A stretch of 62,761 bases of DNA from a virus, in IMG/VR virus record IMGVR_UViG_3300044769_000128, positions 1 through 62,761 of that record. One strand, given 5' to 3'. Of this stretch, positions 12,729 through 17,130 are shown one piece after another; within the stretch, counting starts at the first letter, position 1, and each line of letters starts with the position of its first letter. The notes below the pieces were generated by a model. The model made no database searches. It saw only the letters and a program-made list of their open reading frames with translations, and had not been told where the DNA came from. A program made the translations under genes and the position numbers.

Positions 12729-13721
12729 ATGGAGAATAACGGACAAGAGATAGCGATACCGGGAGCAGCCCCGGCCAACCTACGCGAGCAGGGCGCCGCG
12801 GCGTTGAGCAATCACGCGCTCGATATGTCGCCGGCGCAAGTCGAACTACTCAAGCGCACGATCTGCCACGGTGCGACCGACGATGAATTGCAACTGTTCT
12901 TGCACGTCTGCAAGCGTACCGGACTCGATCCGTTTGCGCGGCAAATCTACGCGGTCAAGCGCTGGGATGGCAGATTGAAGCGCGACGTGATGGGGATTCA
13001 AACCTCCATCGACGGGTTCCGCCTGATCGCCGAACGGTCGGAGAAGTATGCCGGCCAACTCGGGCCGTTCTGGTGCGGCGAGGATGGTGTGTGGAAAGAC
13101 GTATGGCTATCGTCCAAGCCGCCGTTTGCGGCCAAGGTGGCAGCGCTGCGCCATGACTTCACCGAACCGTGTTGGGCAGTGGCTCGCTTCGAGGCTTATG
13201 CTCAACGGGGTGCGAACGGATTGTTCCCGATATGGCAGAAAATGTTCGACCTGATGATTGCCAAGTGCGCCGAGGCGCTCGCGCTGCGCAAGGCGTTCCC
13301 GCAGGAACTGTCGGGACTCTATACCGCTGACGAGATGGGACAAGCGAGTAACGAAGCGGACGAAGCGCCACCGCCGCCCAAGGAAGCCAAGCCCGCGGCA
13401 CCGCCGCCCAAGGAAACCAAGTTGTCGGCGCAGCACCCGGCCATCAACCAAGCGCGGCCACAACCGCAGCCGGAGCAATCCGAGTTCGGCTTCTCCTACA
13501 AGCAAGGGCTATGGGATGCGCTCAAAGCGTACAAGGGGAACAACCGCGATGCTGGGGACTTGTGCAAGGAACTCACCGGCAAAGCCTTCTTCACGGCCTT
13601 AACAGAAGATGAAGCCAAAGAGGGATTGAAGAAGTTTCAAGAGCAGTACCAACAAACGCCGATCGAGGATGCGCAGGTAAGTCAACTTGGCGAACATGGC
13701 ATAGGAAAATCGTACCTGTAA
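12729..13721 (+). CDS. RecT/Redbeta-family single-strand annealing protein
   Basis: [30 protein letters not shown]...[11 protein letters not shown] matches the conserved Bet/RecT core as I recall it. An exonuclease gene lies downstream. Confidence 0.8.
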
Positions 13722-13756: not shown

Positions 13757-14077
13757 ATGTTCGACAAGTTCGAAGCGCGCTGCAAGCTAGGGTGGAAAAG
13801 CTGCTACAAGATGCTCGACTATCAGTATGCAGCGCACCACGAACGCTTGAAGCGCTATCTCGCGTCATTGCCTCGCGAGTTGATGTGTCAGGAATGCGGC
13901 GGGAGTGGCCGTTACGTCGAGGATAAAATCGACTATTACACAATATGGGGCTCATGCGGCTGGTGCGAAGGTCTCGGTATTGTGCCGCCGCATATTCGCG
14001 GGCTGTGGCTGCAATATAAACGACAGGAAAGATACGAAAGGAAGCCGACCAATGGGATTACAAATCTTAAAGAATAG
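13757..14077 (+). CDS. Small protein with DnaJ-type CxxCxGxG zinc-finger motifs
   Basis: CQECGGSG and CGWCEGLG motifs in a 106-aa ORF. Confidence 0.55.
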   Translation: MFDKFEARCKLGWKSCYKMLDYQYAAHHERLKRYLASLPRELMCQECGGSGRYVEDKIDYYTIWGSCGWCEGLGIVPPHIRGLWLQYKRQERYERKPTNGITNLKE

Positions 14078-14378
14078 AGCCGAGGACACCGCATGTTTCT
14101 ACACGTCCGTTACCGATTGGGCCTTCGGGCCTATCGCCCGCGGCGAGGATGCCGAGGCACAGCTGATCGTGTTTACCGAATGGCTCGAGGCTCGGCCGGA
14201 ACATTACGACGACTACGAGTTGGCACGGCTGTGGAGTAAGTTCGGTGCGGAGTACCTGCCGGGGTTCAAATCGTGGATGGCTGACAGATATGAGGAGATC
14301 GATTGGAATAACGTCAAGCAATGGACGAGCGACTACCAACAAGCGCTCGAGGAATCGCACGCAGGGGGTGCAGTTTGA
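14052..14378 (+). CDS. Hypothetical protein
   Basis: Internal ATG at 14052 of track ORF 13905... 108 aa, acidic. Confidence 0.55.
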   Translation: MGLQILKNRAEDTACFYTSVTDWAFGPIARGEDAEAQLIVFTEWLEARPEHYDDYELARLWSKFGAEYLPGFKSWMADRYEEIDWNNVKQWTSDYQQALEESHAGGAV

Positions 14379-14740
14379 AATACACAAACAAGCTCGGACT
14401 GCCGGCGCCGCTGGCGTCCGCGGTGATCCGCGACACGTACCAAAAGGTCGGCGACTTGAGCGTCACGGCGCTCATCATGCCGCCGCGGAAGCGTATCCTC
14501 GAGAAGCGCCACGACGAGGAGATCAGCGTCGACGTCTCCGATCAGCTGTGGATGCTGCTGGGCTCGTCGGTCCATGCGGTCTTGGAGCGTGCCGATACCA
14601 GCGGGCACTTGGCCGAGGAGCGCATGACCGTATGTGTCGGCGATGCTATGCTCTCTGGACAACCGGACCTGCTGGAACGTCACGTGGTTTATAGTTGCCC
14701 CTGCTGTCATAAGGAAGCAGATGCCCCACAAGAAGAATAG
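14375..14740 (+). CDS. PD-(D/E)XK recombination exonuclease, N-terminal fragment (carries the PD motif)
   Basis: TTG at 14375 overlaps the upstream TGA. LSVTALIMPPRKRILEKRH...GSSVHAVLE...LSGQPDLLE is typical of phage Cas4-like exonucleases. It then runs into a non-homologous tail, VVYSCPCCHKEADAPQEE. Confidence 0.7.
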   Translation: MKYTNKLGLPAPLASAVIRDTYQKVGDLSVTALIMPPRKRILEKRHDEEISVDVSDQLWMLLGSSVHAVLERADTSGHLAEERMTVCVGDAMLSGQPDLLERHVVYSCPCCHKEADAPQEE

Positions 14741-15180
14741 AGCGGGAGTGACTTGCAAGTGGTGCGGGACGACGGTCGAGGTTGTCGCGAGCCGCGTGGC
14801 GGGCTTTTCTTATTGCTCACGAAGTTGCTGGGCGATCGCGAGTAATACTGGCAGAACTGTGTCTGAAGAAACTAAGAATAGAATGTCTCTTACAAAGAAG
14901 CTTCAAAACCGCAAGCGAGAACGAAGCGGAAATTGGAAGGGCGGGTTCACCGTCGATTCACTCGGGTATGTGAGAAATAATTTAGCGGGCAAGTATGAAC
15001 ATCGGCGAGTCATGGAAGAATCGTTGGGGCGATCCTTAACCGCGGCCGAAATTGTTCATCATATCAACGGCGATCGATCCGATAATGATCCGAGTAACCT
15101 TTGCATTATGAGTCGGAGCGAACACGCGAAGCATCATTGGGAGGAACACCGTCATGCAATGCGAAGAATGTAAGGTCGAA
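14681..15180 (+). mobile_element. Inserted HNH-endonuclease element interrupting the exonuclease gene (approximate boundaries)
   Basis: It lies between the PD codons (14663..14668) and the DYK codons (15211..15219) of one nuclease fold. Its composition differs from the flanks. Confidence 0.55.
14721..15173 (+). CDS. HNH homing endonuclease
   Basis: HHINGDRSDNDPSNLCIMSRSEHAKHH motif. N-terminal CxxC...CxxxC. AAGGAAG RBS. Visibly lower GC than the flanks. Confidence 0.85.
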   Translation: MPHKKNRAGVTCKWCGTTVEVVASRVAGFSYCSRSCWAIASNTGRTVSEETKNRMSLTKKLQNRKRERSGNWKGGFTVDSLGYVRNNLAGKYEHRRVMEESLGRSLTAAEIVHHINGDRSDNDPSNLCIMSRSEHAKHHWEEHRHAMRRM

Positions 15181-15762
15181 ATGGTGAAGGGTGAGGAATA
15201 TATTCTCAGCGATTATAAAGTCACGAGCACCTATTCCTTCTTACTCGGAGAGAAGATCGAATGGACACAGCAAATTCAGGCATACGCTTGGCTTTATCGC
15301 CAGCATGGCTTTGAAGTAAAGAAAGCACGTATCGTCGCGCTGCTCCGCGATTGGATGGCGTCTCGCGCCGAGACCGATCCCGGCTATCCGCAAAGCGGCG
15401 TTATCGTCAAGGAAATTCCCTTATGGTCAGCCAACGAACAAGAGCGCTACGTCTACGAGCGGGTCGCGCTGCACATGGACTCGGAAGCGCTCAAGGATGA
15501 TGAGTTGGAAGTGTGCTCCGCAACCGAGCGCTGGCAAAAAGCCGACTCGTGGGCGGTCAAGAAGAAGGGCAACAAGCGGGCGACCAAGGTATTCGACAGC
15601 GCGGCCGCGGCTCAAGAGATGGCCGAGAGCAATGCGACGTTCGAGGTCGAGCACCGGCCGGGACAATCGCTGCGTTGCCTGCGGTACTGCAACGCTGCGC
15701 CGTTCTGCTCGTATGCAAAAGGGCTGGCGGTCGTGGATGAACTGATCGCCGCGGAGGGGTAA
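15154..15762 (+). CDS. PD-(D/E)XK recombination exonuclease, C-terminal fragment (DxK motif plus C-terminal Cys cluster)
   Basis: YILSDYKVTS...EWTQQIQAYAWLYR...IVALLRDW...CLRYCNAAPFC. The start is ATG 15154 (overlapping the HNH end) or ATG 15181. Confidence 0.75.
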   Translation: MQCEECKVEMVKGEEYILSDYKVTSTYSFLLGEKIEWTQQIQAYAWLYRQHGFEVKKARIVALLRDWMASRAETDPGYPQSGVIVKEIPLWSANEQERYVYERVALHMDSEALKDDELEVCSATERWQKADSWAVKKKGNKRATKVFDSAAAAQEMAESNATFEVEHRPGQSLRCLRYCNAAPFCSYAKGLAVVDELIAAEG

Positions 15763-16219: not shown

Positions 16220-16606
16220 ATGAGCTACCGCTATACGCAGCAGGACGTCAAGGACATTCTCGCGCGCAATCAGCCGAGCAAAAGCAAGTACGGCAACAAA
16301 AAGGTCGTCGTCGATAACATCGGCTTCGACTCCAAGCGGGAAGCGGCCCGCTACAACGAGCTCAAGCTGATGGCCGGCGCGGGACTCATCAGCGATTTGG
16401 TGTGCCATCCGGCTTACGTAATCAAGATCAACGGCATTCATATTTGCGACGTGATCCTGGATTTCCGCTACTATGATTTGCAAAAACGGGTGACAGAATC
16501 AGCAATAGTGATCGAGGACGTCAAGGGCAAGGACAACGATCTGTCCCGGCTCAAGCGCAAATTGGTGGAAGCGCAATATGGTTTCAAGGTAACGCTGGTG
16601 AAGTAA
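16220..16606 (+). CDS. DUF1064-like PD-(D/E)XK nuclease (Holliday-junction-resolvase-like)
   Basis: KYGNKKVVVDNIGFDSKREAARYNELKL...VILDFRY...IEDVKGK matches the DUF1064 pattern as I recall it. Confidence 0.7.
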   Translation: MSYRYTQQDVKDILARNQPSKSKYGNKKVVVDNIGFDSKREAARYNELKLMAGAGLISDLVCHPAYVIKINGIHICDVILDFRYYDLQKRVTESAIVIEDVKGKDNDLSRLKRKLVEAQYGFKVTLVK

Positions 16607-17130
16607 TGTCATTCAGTCCCTATCACTGCCCCCGCTGTGGCACCGAGGTTATATTCAAGCGAATGCTCACGGTCGAGGAGGCGGCCGCGATGGCCGGCGT
16701 GAAGCCAACCACCATCATCGATTGGATTCACCAGCACAAGCTCCGCTACCGATTGTTTTCCTACGGGCCAAAAGGGTTGCGCAAAAGGATCGATACCGTC
16801 GATCTAATCGAATGGCTAAACAAATTGTACCCGTACCCCGAGATGCTCAACCCCGACAGGTGGGATCACCGAAAGTATTTGAAGCGCAACGAGGATCTGC
16901 GCAAGGCAAGGATAGTTCAGGCGAGGCTCCGCGCGGAACGCAAGTCAGCCACCCAACAAACAAGTCAGCTACCCAACAAACAAACAATCAGCGGGCCGGC
17001 CGCGCCGGCATCGAGTCCGGCAGACCAATCGCCTCCACCCGAAGATCAATCTGGTGCGGATCAAGCTGCCGAGCAATCGACGCGCACTGATGACACACCA
17101 GCAAGTCGAGATATTTCTTCCCAGCGGTAG
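16606..17130 (+). CDS. Zinc-ribbon plus excisionase/MerR-like HTH DNA-binding protein with low-complexity tail
   Basis: CPRCG, then LTVEEAAAMAGVKPTTIIDWIHQHKL (HTH_17-like). Confidence 0.6.
   Translation: MSFSPYHCPRCGTEVIFKRMLTVEEAAAMAGVKPTTIIDWIHQHKLRYRLFSYGPKGLRKRIDTVDLIEWLNKLYPYPEMLNPDRWDHRKYLKRNEDLRKARIVQARLRAERKSATQQTSQLPNKQTISGPAAPASSPADQSPPPEDQSGADQAAEQSTRTDDTPASRDISSQR

What the first reader, a model, noticed from the sequence alone, without database searches (positions are those of the whole stretch)
14375..15762. HNH homing endonuclease splits the RecT-partner exonuclease between its PD and DxK catalytic motifs, with three ORFs in three frames
The ORF at 14375..14740 carries the N-terminal half of a phage Cas4-like PD-(D/E)XK exonuclease (LSVTALIMPP..., GSSVHAVLE, LSGQPDLLE). 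The ORF at 15154..15762 carries the rest (YILSDYKVTS, EWTQQIQAYAWLYR, IVALLRDW, C-terminal CLRYCNAAPFC). In intact relatives the PD and DxK motifs are only about a dozen residues apart, as I recall.

Here the two motifs are separated by about 540 bp holding a lower-GC HNH endonuclease gene (14721..15173). That gene has its own AAGGAAG RBS and overlaps both fragments by 20 nt. All three ORFs are in different frames, so this is not an intein. Very little non-ORF RNA is left for a group I intron core.

The junction-derived tails add CPCC to the end of the N-fragment and CEEC to the start of the C-fragment. These could form an intermolecular metal clasp that reassembles the split enzyme. That last point is speculative.
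Basis: partly seen in the sequence, partly recalled or inferred. Interest (0 to 1): 0.75.

Follow-up and report, generated by a model that had tools for sequence, protein, structure and literature searches.

The report
Exonuclease gene split by HNH endonuclease
A selfish HNH endonuclease gene has landed in the middle of a phage recombination exonuclease gene, between two catalytic motifs, so the enzyme is now encoded as two separately translated halves; this is a rare but already documented kind of "gene in pieces", here with cysteine-rich tails at the break.

Summary
A Cas4-like PD-(D/E)XK exonuclease gene, downstream of RecT, is continuous in every one of several hundred relatives examined. 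Here it is broken in the short loop between the PD aspartate and the DxK motif by about 515 bp. That insert carries an intact HNH_3 endonuclease ORF (14721..15173).

The three ORFs are in three frames. Each downstream ORF starts 20 nt before the upstream stop, and each has its own Shine-Dalgarno sequence. Nothing supports RNA or protein splicing: there is no Rfam intron match, the RNA fold is no more stable than shuffled sequence (z = -0.23), 88% of the insert is ORF, and the tails (20 and about 14 aa) are too short for a split intein.

Both halves keep 43 of 44 highly conserved residues and show no faster change than intact relatives. A second, diverged relative (L003) is split at the same loop by another HNH gene.

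The best explanation is a free-standing homing endonuclease creating a genes-in-pieces enzyme. The closest precedents are phage Aeh1 nrdA-a/mobE/nrdA-b and an SbcD-like gene split by a Vsr-like endonuclease.

The paired CxxC motifs in the tails are unlikely by chance (about 1-3 x 10^-4) and resemble a zinc ribbon broken at its tip. The metal-clasp idea remains untested, and the second split locus does not share it. This is a new member of a known kind.

The parts
12729..13721 (+). RecT-family single-strand annealing protein, the recombination partner of the exonuclease.
   Evidence: Pfam RecT at E = 1.5e-32. It sits upstream of the exonuclease, as in the intact relative L001.
14375..14740 (+). 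Exonuclease N-fragment, 121 aa. Residues 1-101 are homologous to intact exonucleases and end at ...GQPDLLE, which holds the PD aspartate. Residues 102-121 are a unique tail, RHVVYSCPCCHKEADAPQEE.
   Evidence: phrog_2139 at 3.4e-14. It is 89-91% identical to the N-halves of the intact P0001 and P0002. The TTG start overlaps the upstream stop, and intact relatives start at the same residue. JGI makes the same call, P0138.
14678..15192 (+). Inserted DNA, about 515 bp, with boundaries uncertain by about 6 nt. It consists of a 43-nt leader with a Shine-Dalgarno sequence, the HNH ORF, and about 20 nt of 3' sequence. It replaces about 4 loop codons of intact relatives.
   Evidence: In the DNA alignment with intact L001 and L002, homology stops after CTGCTGGAA (14677) and resumes around 15193-15205. 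The protein alignments agree.
14712..14718 (+). Shine-Dalgarno-like AAGGAAG for the HNH ORF. It lies inside the coding sequence of the N-fragment tail.
   Evidence: Read directly from the sequence.
14721..15173 (+). Free-standing HNH (HNH_3) endonuclease gene, 150 aa. It has an N-terminal CxxC...CxxxC finger and an intact HH...N...H motif.
   Evidence: Pfam HNH_3 at 5.5e-13, plus 15 PHROG HNH families. It is the only gene of this type in the window.
15140..15145 (+). Shine-Dalgarno GGAGGA for the C-fragment, embedded in the 3' end of the HNH ORF.
   Evidence: Read directly from the sequence: it lies 8 nt upstream of ATG 15154.
15154..15762 (+). Exonuclease C-fragment, 202 aa. It has a unique head, MQCEECKVEMVKG(EE). 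The homologous part follows from YILSDYK and holds DxK, QxxxY, a DUF2188-like insert and four conserved Cys.
   Evidence: phrog_2139 at 5e-38. It is 73-79% identical to the C-halves of the intact P0001 and P0002. The invariant residues are listed. JGI's gene call is P0003.

Best explanation
**What it is.** A free-standing HNH homing endonuclease gene, with about 43 nt of leader and about 20 nt of trailer, was copied into the coding sequence of the phage's Cas4-like PD-(D/E)XK exonuclease, the nuclease partner of RecT. It landed in the turn of the beta-hairpin that carries the PD aspartate on one strand and the DxK motif on the other.

**What is shown.**
- The gene is physically split into two ORFs.
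- The inserted DNA supplies a stop for the first half.
- It supplies a Shine-Dalgarno sequence and ATG for the endonuclease.
- It supplies a Shine-Dalgarno sequence and an in-frame ATG for the second half.
- Both halves are intact and undecayed.
- No intron-like or intein-like element is detectable.

**What is inferred.**
- The three ORFs are translated separately from one transcript, with coupling through the 20-nt overlaps.
- The two exonuclease polypeptides re-associate non-covalently, re-forming the hairpin and a composite active site. The aspartate comes from the N-fragment. The DxK, QxxxY and four-cysteine cluster come from the C-fragment.
- The HNH enzyme cuts uninterrupted alleles of the gene in co-infecting relatives, and repair then copies the endonuclease gene in. 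The insertion destroys the target in its own genome.

**More speculative.** The junction-encoded tails extend the two hairpin strands. Their CxxC pairs (C-P-C-C, then 13 residues, then C-E-E-C) may bind one metal ion between the two chains and so stabilise the heterodimer.
For: **Break position.**
- 118 of 118 aligned full-length homologues are uninterrupted at this loop.
- All other loci scanned with separate N-half and C-half HMMs are also uninterrupted there, apart from L003, as are all 25 genome loci, judged from their contiguous match spans.
- All 381 GenBank phage matches are single-piece.
- The DNA alignment places the insert at about 14678..15192.

**The two halves are one enzyme.**
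- The halves joined in silico pass the Pfam PDDEXK_1 gathering score (25.3 against 22), with the match running across the junction. Neither half passes alone.
- The AlphaFold2 model has pLDDT 86.9. Its best PDB neighbour is Cas4 SSO0001 (4ic1; E = 1.9e-6, probability 1.0), followed by Exo5, AdnAB, MGME1, RecE and a lambda-exonuclease-like enzyme.

**The HNH gene is intact.**

**No splicing element.**
- No Rfam family matches at E <= 10 except a chance snoRNA hit on the opposite strand.
- The RNA fold z-score is -0.23.
- 453 of about 515 inserted nt are ORF.
- The tails are 20 and about 14 aa with no domain match.

**The split gene looks maintained.**
- There is an in-frame ATG with GGAGGA 8 nt upstream.
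- dN/dS against intact relatives is 0.10-0.20, against 0.13 between two intact genes.
- Lineage-specific substitutions are not in excess: 20 in the window, against 13 and 25 in the two intact relatives.
- 43 of 44 columns that are at least 90% conserved are kept.

**Recurrence.**
- In L003, the C-terminus of an HNH ORF abuts a C-fragment that starts MKLTDWK at the same loop, with an ATGA stop/start overlap.
- The same derived start in L126, together with saturated synonymous divergence (pS 0.90, pN 0.25), suggests long purifying selection on a fractured C-fragment.

**Tails.**
- The chance of a CxxC in both tails is 1.3-3.5e-4.
- The model extends the strands (E99-107 and E132-145) with tail pLDDT 73-86.
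- The joined tails weakly match the HypA zinc-ribbon segment (E = 0.018, below cut-off).

**Precedent.** In Aeh1 nrdA-a/mobE/nrdA-b, the tails that originated with the insertion are essential (PMC3045599). An SbcD-like gene is split by a Vsr-like endonuclease, with tails of 25 and 9 aa (PMC2677866).
Against: - There are no expression, interaction or activity data. Every functional step is inferred.
- dN/dS and the relative-rate counts average over history before and after the insertion. A recent insertion into a now-dead gene would look the same.
- The exonuclease may be dispensable for the phage, so selection to rescue it is not guaranteed.
- No close relative of this HNH gene or of these tails was found: the best is 50% identity over part of the protein, and there are no DNA matches. 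Conservation of the tails therefore cannot be tested.
- The nearest HNH relatives are not inside exonuclease genes, so target specificity for this site is unproven.
- The L003-type C-fragment has no cysteine head. Both tails here are acidic, so they lack the charge complementarity seen in Aeh1.
- The AlphaFold2 model was of an artificial fused chain, and its coordinates could not be inspected.
- In L126 the fractured C-fragment has no N-half or HNH gene within 4 kb. Such fragments can therefore persist without an adjacent partner.
Confidence: 0.62

Rival explanations
1. The exonuclease was simply inactivated by a selfish insertion. The HNH gene landed in a dispensable gene, and the two ORFs are recent, not yet decayed remnants that do not form an enzyme. 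The start codon, the Shine-Dalgarno sequence and the cysteines came with the inserted DNA by chance.
For: - No close relatives carry the same insertion, which fits a recent event.
- Selection measures cannot isolate the branch after the insertion.
- L126 shows a fractured C-fragment with no partner nearby.
- Phage exonucleases that partner with RecT are often non-essential (general knowledge).
Against: - An in-frame ATG with a strong Shine-Dalgarno sequence sits exactly ahead of the second half.
- There is no excess of lineage-specific or disruptive substitutions, and 43 of 44 conserved columns are kept.
- L003 has the same solution, a start codon fused to the HNH stop.
- L003 and L126 C-fragments share the derived start and diverged under strong constraint (pN 0.25 against a saturated pS of 0.90).
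- Paired CxxC motifs are improbable by chance.
Confidence: 0.25
2. The insert is a group I intron carrying an HNH ORF. Self-splicing restores a continuous mRNA. For example, a 5' splice site after U14680 and a 3' splice site after G15195 would give PDLLER|EYILSDYK, the same loop length as in relatives.
For: - Phage HNH endonucleases are often intron-encoded (general knowledge; PMC3943268 was listed).
- A U/G splice-site pair that restores the reading frame can be drawn from the sequence.
Against: - No group I or group II model matches, even at E <= 10 with permissive filters.
- The folding energy is no better than shuffled sequence (z = -0.23).
- Only about 62 nt of the insert lie outside the ORF.
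- In L003 the second half starts at the very stop codon of the HNH ORF, which leaves no 3' intron sequence.
- An intron would have no need for an in-frame ATG with a Shine-Dalgarno sequence for exon 2.
Confidence: 0.06
3. This is a fractured gene with a split intein. The tails would be intein halves that ligate the two exonuclease halves by protein trans-splicing, as in the loci described by Dassa et al. 2009.
For: The gene order, host N-half then free-standing endonuclease then host C-half, is the same as in the fractured-gene loci (PMC2677866).
Against: - The tails total about 34 aa, against roughly 130 aa or more for a Hint fold (general knowledge).
- There is no Pfam match in the tails.
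- The first tail residue is Arg, not Cys or Ser.
- No nucleophilic Cys, Ser or Thr follows the head where homology resumes (GEEY).
Confidence: 0.01
4. The arrangement is an assembly or sequencing artefact, a chimeric join that places an HNH gene inside the exonuclease gene.
For: The window is a single metagenomic contig seen once.
Against: - The junctions are compact and organised, with two 20-nt ORF overlaps and two Shine-Dalgarno sequences.
- Flanking homology resumes at the corresponding codon of the same gene.
- An independent contig from another sample, L003, shows the same kind of interruption at the same loop.
Confidence: 0.02

Closest known systems
[quoted passage not shown] 2007 PNAS, cited; Crona et al. 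2011 NAR, PMC3045599)
   Same: - A free-standing HNH-family homing endonuclease gene sits inside a gene that is continuous in all relatives.
[quoted passage not shown] - The endonuclease ORF overlaps the start of the downstream half.
- Unique C-terminal and N-terminal tails are encoded by DNA that came with the insertion.
- There is no RNA or protein splicing.
   Different: - The host gene here is a Cas4-like PD-(D/E)XK exonuclease of a RecT recombination module, not nrdA.
- The endonuclease is HNH_3-type and only distantly related, if at all, to mobE.
- The Aeh1 tails have opposite charges. Here both tails are acidic and each carries a CxxC motif.
- Function of the split enzyme is shown experimentally for Aeh1 and only inferred here.
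SbcD-like exonuclease split by a Vsr-like endonuclease without an intein (Dassa et al. 2009 NAR, PMC2677866)
   Same: - A DNA-repair nuclease gene of metagenomic, probably phage, origin is broken by a free-standing endonuclease ORF.
- There is no intein.
- Short unique segments flank the fracture point: 25 aa and 9 aa there, 20 aa and about 14 aa here.
   Different: - The nuclease fold differs: a calcineurin-like phosphoesterase there, PD-(D/E)XK here.
- The endonuclease family differs: Vsr-like there, HNH here.
- No cysteine motifs were reported in those tails.
T4 topoisomerase gp39 / mobA / gp60 (discussed in PMC3045599)
   Same: A homing endonuclease gene separates two halves of one enzyme, and both halves carry tail-like extensions.
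   Different: T4 gene 60 also needs a 50-nt ribosomal bypass. Nothing comparable is seen here.
Intermolecular zinc sites built from two CxxC motifs, such as the Rad50 zinc hook, and CxxC-x12-13-CxxC zinc ribbons such as the HypA zinc site (general knowledge; the HypA match is)
   Same: There are two CxxC knuckles with zinc-ribbon spacing (13 residues between them when the tails are joined). In the Rad50 hook, each chain contributes one CxxC to a shared metal ion, which is what the clasp idea requires.
   Different: No metal binding is shown. The HypA match is below threshold (15.5 bits against 28.9). Here the two knuckles would come from two different gene products created by a gene fracture.

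Membership tests
Genes-in-pieces created by a free-standing homing endonuclease (Aeh1 nrdA/mobE type) | A gene that is continuous in relatives is broken into two ORFs at a single point. | tested here: met
   118 aligned homologues and the loci scanned with half-gene HMMs are uninterrupted at this loop, apart from L003. The window has a 527-nt gap between the N-half and C-half HMM matches. The 25 genome loci have contiguous matches of about 800-875 nt.
Genes-in-pieces created by a free-standing homing endonuclease (Aeh1 nrdA/mobE type) | A complete endonuclease ORF with its own translation signals lies between the halves, in a different frame. | tested here: met
   HNH_3 at 48.8 bits against a cut-off of 24.8. 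The ORF has an ATG preceded by AAGGAAG. Frames are 2, 0 and 1.
Genes-in-pieces created by a free-standing homing endonuclease (Aeh1 nrdA/mobE type) | No self-splicing intron and no intein surrounds the endonuclease gene. | tested here: met
   No Rfam intron match at E <= 10. Fold z-score -0.23. Only about 62 nt of the insert are non-ORF. The tails are 20 and about 14 aa with no domain match. Absence of splicing at the RNA or protein level was not measured.
Genes-in-pieces created by a free-standing homing endonuclease (Aeh1 nrdA/mobE type) | Unique tail sequences sit at the fracture point and are absent from continuous relatives. | tested here: met
   RHVVYSCPCCHKEADAPQEE and MQCEECKVEMVKG(EE) align to gaps in all homologues.
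Genes-in-pieces created by a free-standing homing endonuclease (Aeh1 nrdA/mobE type) | The halves are translated separately and assemble into an active enzyme. | not testable with these tools
   Only indirect evidence is available: a Shine-Dalgarno sequence and ATG for the second half, no decay, and constraint on L003/L126-type fractured C-fragments.
PD-(D/E)XK nuclease, Cas4-like / RecB-like exonuclease | Catalytic D ... (D/E)xK core with a QxxxY motif. | tested here: met
   D98 lies in the N-fragment. D141, K143, Q161 and Y165 (numbering of the joined sequence) lie in the C-fragment. All are invariant in the alignment.
PD-(D/E)XK nuclease, Cas4-like / RecB-like exonuclease | Reaches the Pfam PDDEXK_1 (PF12705) gathering score. 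| tested here: met
   The joined halves score 25.3 bits against 22, over residues 89-274 and across the junction. Neither fragment alone scores. Many homologues carry PF12705.
PD-(D/E)XK nuclease, Cas4-like / RecB-like exonuclease | Fold similarity to solved Cas4-type or RecB-type nucleases. | tested here: met
   Foldseek top hit is 4ic1 (SSO0001 Cas4): E = 1.9e-6, probability 1.0, TM 0.55 normalised to the target. Exo5, AdnAB, MGME1, Cas4, RecE and LHK-Exo follow. A sequence profile found no PDB match.
PD-(D/E)XK nuclease, Cas4-like / RecB-like exonuclease | Four-cysteine iron-sulfur cluster site. | tested here: inconclusive
   Four invariant Cys (C242, C296, C300, C306) are all in the C-fragment. 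Cluster binding was not tested.
CRISPR-associated Cas4 proper (NCBIfam TIGR00372 equivalog) | Reaches the curated equivalog cut-off. | tested here: not met
   26.5 bits against a cut-off of 65. The protein is Cas4-like in fold, but it is not a CRISPR Cas4.
HNH homing endonuclease | HNH catalytic motif is present and intact. | tested here: met
   Pfam HNH_3. The motif IVHHINGDRSDNDPSNL...SEHAKHH aligns with its relatives.
HNH homing endonuclease | Cleaves the endonuclease-free allele and is copied into it (homing). | not testable with these tools
   Indirect only. A second HNH gene occupies the same loop in L003. A more divergent tract of about 45 codons lies immediately downstream of the insert. 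The nearest HNH relatives are not in exonuclease genes.
Group I intron | Conserved catalytic core (P3-P9) detectable by covariance model. | tested here: not met
   No match in Rfam 15 at E <= 10 over 14300..15500. No excess structure.
Split intein (fractured gene) | N-terminal and C-terminal intein halves with Hint-domain blocks and nucleophilic junction residues. | tested here: not met
   The tails are 20 and about 14 aa with no Pfam match. The junction residues are Arg, and Gly/Glu.
Zinc ribbon / intermolecular zinc clasp | Two CxxC knuckles at ribbon spacing that bind one metal ion. | tested here: inconclusive
   The motif is present: CPCC, then 13 residues, then CEEC. Chance probability is 1.3-3.5e-4. 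The HypA zinc-site match is below cut-off. Tail pLDDT is 73-86 in a fused-chain model. There are no relatives in which to test conservation, and the L003 head has no Cys.

The most novel reading that the evidence does not exclude
The DNA that came in with the endonuclease gene encodes the two halves of a small zinc ribbon. One CxxC knuckle sits at the end of the N-fragment and the other at the start of the C-fragment. After separate translation, the two knuckles would bind a single metal ion between the chains, as the Rad50 zinc hook does. This would clamp the broken beta-hairpin shut and restore the composite PD / DxK active site. It would be a new molecular solution for repairing a gene fractured by a selfish element. 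It differs from the charge-complementary tails of Aeh1 NrdA and from RNA or protein splicing.
Probability: 0.25. Interest if true: 0.65.

Novelty: new member of a known kind. Interest (0 to 1): 0.45.

Why it matters
Few gene fractures by free-standing homing endonucleases have been described. A 2023 paper still cites the Aeh1 case as "at least one instance" of a split gene that keeps its function (PMC10448857).

This locus adds a clean example in a different enzyme class. The cut falls between two residues of one catalytic triad, and it recurs at the same loop in a diverged relative. That points to a preferred target site in a widespread phage exonuclease family, which has about 3,900 cluster representatives.

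The halves are small (121 and 202 aa) and the nuclease activity is easy to assay. This makes a convenient system for asking how fractured enzymes reassemble and whether insertion-derived tails do the work.

If the paired CxxC tails form an intermolecular metal site, that would be a new rescue mechanism and a possible natural template for split-protein engineering.

Tried and rejected
- **Intron.** An Rfam scan at E <= 10 over 14300..15500 gave only a chance snoRNA hit on the opposite strand. Folds of the whole insert and of both junctions gave z-scores of -0.23, +0.62 and +0.28.
- **Junction repeats.** Direct and inverted repeats at the junctions (GAAGAAT at 14731 and 15163; AACGTCACG / AAAGTCACG) are no better than many other short repeats in the region. 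AAGAAT recurs several times. I treat them as chance.
- **Transcription signals.** Promoter-like and terminator-like sites are at the numbers expected from shuffles.
- **More copies of this insertion.**
  - The HNH protein search gave hits of at most 50% identity.
  - An IMG/VR scan with the HNH protein gave 5 loci at 34-47% identity, none flanked by exonuclease halves.
  - A degenerate DNA pattern for the CPCC tail found nothing in IMG/VR.
  - The N-fragment search returned only the window's own gene.
- **More L003-type fractures.** A degenerate pattern for ATG-K-L-T-D-W-K-V-T found nothing in IMG/VR or in the genome collection. The metagenome scan with P0079 returned only uninterrupted genes.
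- **Short hits in the representative search.** Most were N-truncated proteins that still hold the PD motif, not fractures. P0266 (L127) turned out to be a frameshifted gene that is continuous at this loop.
- **Origin of the HNH gene.** The L001 HNH-like gene downstream of DUF1064 is not related to the window's HNH gene, so it gives no evidence for a local hop.
- **Two-chain model.** Model coordinates are not exposed, so Cys-Cys distances could not be measured.
- **GC content.** It does not mark the 3' boundary, because the first 45 codons of the C-half are low in GC in the intact relatives too.


Full report
**1. The observation**

| ORF | Coordinates | Length | Frame |
|---|---|---|---|
| Exonuclease N-fragment (TTG start) | 14375..14740 | 121 aa | 2 |
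| HNH endonuclease | 14721..15173 | 150 aa | 0 |
| Exonuclease C-fragment | 15154..15762 | 202 aa | 1 |

- Each downstream ORF begins 20 nt before the end of the previous one.
- AAGGAAG precedes the HNH ATG, and GGAGGA lies 8 nt before the C-fragment ATG.
- JGI's own annotation calls the two exonuclease fragments with these same ends (P0138; P0003).
- The middle ORF is a clear HNH_3 endonuclease: Pfam E = 5.5e-13, plus 15 PHROG HNH families.
- Both flanking ORFs hit the same PHROG exonuclease family, phrog_2139. They cover profile positions 2-84 and 143-322.
- RecT lies upstream at 12729..13721.

**2. Where the break is**

A search with the two fragments joined found 184 relatives. The best are uninterrupted proteins of 289-293 aa that are 72-75% identical (P0001, P0002).

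In an alignment of 118 full-length relatives, the segment between '...G(Q/K)PDLLx' and 'xxDYK(V)TS' is only 3-6 residues, rarely up to about 12. The window has 34 extra residues there, which are the two tails.

At the DNA level, homology to the intact genes of L001 and L002 stops after CTGCTGGAA (14677) and resumes around 15193-15205. The insert is therefore about 515 bp, of which 453 bp are the HNH ORF. It replaces about four loop codons.

I built separate HMMs for the N-half and the C-half and scanned the six-frame translations of the 125 loci fetched up to that point. Only the window showed a large gap between the halves at this loop (527 nt), and only L003 held a C-half with no N-half. The 25 genome loci fetched later all have contiguous matches of about 800-875 nt. 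All 381 matches in GenBank phages are single pieces.

**3. What the host gene is**

- Joined in silico, the halves pass the Pfam PDDEXK_1 gathering score with a match that runs across the junction. Neither half does so alone.
- An AlphaFold2 model of the joined sequence is confident (pLDDT 86.9, pTM 0.79).
- Its best PDB neighbour is the Cas4 protein SSO0001 (4ic1; E = 1.9e-6). Human Exo5, AdnAB, MGME1, type I-C Cas4, RecE and a lambda-exonuclease-like enzyme follow.
- It is not a CRISPR Cas4 in the strict sense: it scores 26.5 bits on NCBIfam cas4 against a cut-off of 65.
- In the model, the PD strand (E99-107) and the DxK strand (E132-145) form one hairpin. The break is therefore in a hairpin turn.
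- The catalytic aspartate D98 is on the N-fragment. D141, K143, Q161, Y165 and the four invariant cysteines are on the C-fragment.

**4. Is anything spliced?**

- No Rfam family, including the intron models, matches 14300..15500 even at E <= 10. The single listed hit is a chance snoRNA match on the opposite strand.
- The insert folds no better than shuffled sequence (z = -0.23). Neither junction is structured.
- Only about 62 nt of the insert lie outside the HNH ORF.
- A frame-restoring U...G splice pair can be drawn (after U14680 and after G15195), but nothing else supports it.
- An intein is excluded by the three frames. A split intein is excluded by the tail lengths (20 and about 14 aa), the lack of any domain match, and non-nucleophilic junction residues.

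**5. Is the split gene alive?**

- The second half has its own in-frame ATG and a strong Shine-Dalgarno sequence, both supplied by the inserted DNA.
- dN/dS of each half against the intact relatives is 0.10-0.20. Between the two intact genes it is 0.13.
- Substitutions unique to the window lineage number 4 in the N-half and 16 in the C-half. L001 has 4 and 9, and L002 has 5 and 20.
- 43 of 44 columns that are at least 90% conserved are kept. The one exception is N163Q.
- These measures cannot isolate the time since the insertion, so a recent inactivation is not excluded.

**6. A second case**

P0079 is a 190-aa protein that starts MKLTDWKVTS, two residues before the DxK motif. On its contig (L003) it is directly preceded by the C-terminus of another HNH_3 endonuclease (...EIVHHKDGNKLNNNLDNLELTTRAEHLRMHRIWE*). 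The stop of that ORF overlaps the start of P0079 as ATGA. This HNH end is 43% identical to the window's HNH. The contig is cut, so the N-half is unseen.

A related contig, L126, has the same derived start (ATG AAA CTN ACN GAT TGG). Its upstream DNA is unrelated, and no N-half or HNH gene lies within 4 kb.

The two C-fragments are 63% identical, with saturated synonymous change (pS 0.90) and pN 0.25. If the shared start reflects a fracture in their common ancestor, a fractured C-fragment has been under purifying selection for a long time.

The same loop has thus been hit at least twice in this family. The L003-type head has no cysteine.

**7. The tails**

The N-tail is RHVVYSCPCCHKEADAPQEE. The C-head is MQCEECKVEMVKG(EE).

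- The first six head codons are overprinted on the last HNH codons, and the last six tail codons on the first HNH codons.
- Both tails are acidic, unlike the oppositely charged Aeh1 tails.
- Each contains a CxxC motif. The chance of that in both tails is 1.3e-4 to 3.5e-4, using this window's own translated sequence.
- Joined, the tails read C-P-C-C, then 13 residues, then C-E-E-C. That is zinc-ribbon spacing. The joined tails weakly match the zinc-site segment of HypA (E = 0.018, 15.5 bits, below the cut-off of 28.9).
- In the fused-chain model, the tails prolong the two hairpin strands at pLDDT 73-86, although no homologue covers them.

**8. Origin**

- The window's HNH gene has no close relative in 5.8 billion proteins or in IMG/VR. 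The best matches are 50% identical or less over part of the protein.
- Its nearest relatives are not inside exonuclease genes.
- It is the only gene of its type in the window.
- Nucleotide identity to L001 drops to 0.53-0.73 for about 45 codons immediately downstream of the insert. It then rises to 0.87-0.98. This could be a co-converted flank from the donor, but the evidence is weak.

**9. Comparison with known systems**

The anatomy matches the genes-in-pieces class. In phage Aeh1, the HNH-family mobE gene splits nrdA between adjacent beta-strands and partitions the active-site cysteines. It overlaps nrdA-b and leaves insertion-derived tails that are essential for activity (PMC3045599).

Dassa et al. 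describe an SbcD-like exonuclease split by a Vsr-like endonuclease without an intein. That gene has unique segments of 25 aa and 9 aa at the fracture (PMC2677866).

The locus here is therefore a new member of a known kind. It has three features of its own:
- a new host enzyme class;
- a cut within one catalytic triad that recurs at the same loop in a diverged relative;
- cysteine-pair tails.

**10. Verdict**

| Claim | Confidence |
|---|---|
| An HNH endonuclease gene fractured the exonuclease gene, with no splicing element detectable | about 0.9 |
| The halves reassemble into an active nuclease | about 0.6 |
| The tails form a metal clasp | about 0.25 |

Noticed in passing
L003:1-695 (JGI 3300023284, Ga0255798_10206554): This is a second, diverged exonuclease split at the same loop. 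The 3' end of another HNH_3 ORF ends in an ATGA overlap with a C-fragment that starts MKLTDWKVTS (P0079). The contig is cut, so the N-half and most of the HNH gene are unseen.
   Followed up: partly
L126:3424-4570 (JGI 3300022707, Ga0247389_10053474): This is an orphan C-fragment (P0140) with the same derived MKLTDWK start as L003. It has about 577 nt of unrelated non-coding DNA upstream and a divergently transcribed integrase module. No N-half or HNH gene lies within 4 kb. Against L003 it shows pN 0.25 and a saturated pS of 0.90, so it has been under constraint. Where its partner half is, if one exists, is unknown.
   Followed up: partly
window 12729-13721 and L001:665-1669: The annealing proteins of the window and of the close relative L001 share only the first 10 residues and the last ~100 residues (70% identity). 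The window's core matches the Pfam RecT domain and has no detectable similarity to the core of the L001 protein. This looks like a swap of the catalytic core between conserved ends, possibly keeping a partner-binding tail.
   Followed up: no
window 16606-17130 and L001:4561-5085: The genes downstream of the DUF1064 gene start with the identical six residues MSFSPY in both phages and then diverge completely. The L001 gene is an HNH_3-like protein and the window gene is not. This is a sharp mosaic boundary next to a nuclease gene.
   Followed up: no
window 15199-15340: About 45 codons immediately downstream of the HNH insert are clearly more diverged from L001 (0.53-0.73 nucleotide identity) than the next ~75 codons (0.87-0.98). 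Eight of the 16 window-specific amino-acid changes in the C-half lie here. It may be a co-conversion tract from the donor of the endonuclease gene.
   Followed up: partly
window 13757-14077: This small ORF (106 aa) has CxxCxGxG-type cysteine pairs and weak, sub-threshold matches to the DnaJ central zinc-finger domain. It overlaps the start of the ORF at 13905-14378, which directly precedes the exonuclease.
   Followed up: no
window 14721-15173: The HNH ORF did not appear in the search of the 5.8-billion-protein collection, although both exonuclease fragments from this same contig did. The source annotation may not have called the endonuclease gene.
   Followed up: no
L127:2835-3691 (ENA ERZ23496382): This exonuclease homologue is continuous at the PD/DxK loop but has a frameshift within the N-half (HMM positions 1-69 and 74-100 lie in different frames). 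The gene caller therefore reported only a 181-aa C-terminal protein (P0266). It is either a sequencing error or a pseudogene, not an endonuclease split.
   Followed up: partly
L133-L157 (genome contigs): The closest cellular (probably prophage) copies of this exonuclease are in Acidobacteriota genomes assembled from metagenomes, many of them Pyrinomonadaceae. This is a weak hint at the host range of this phage group.
   Followed up: no
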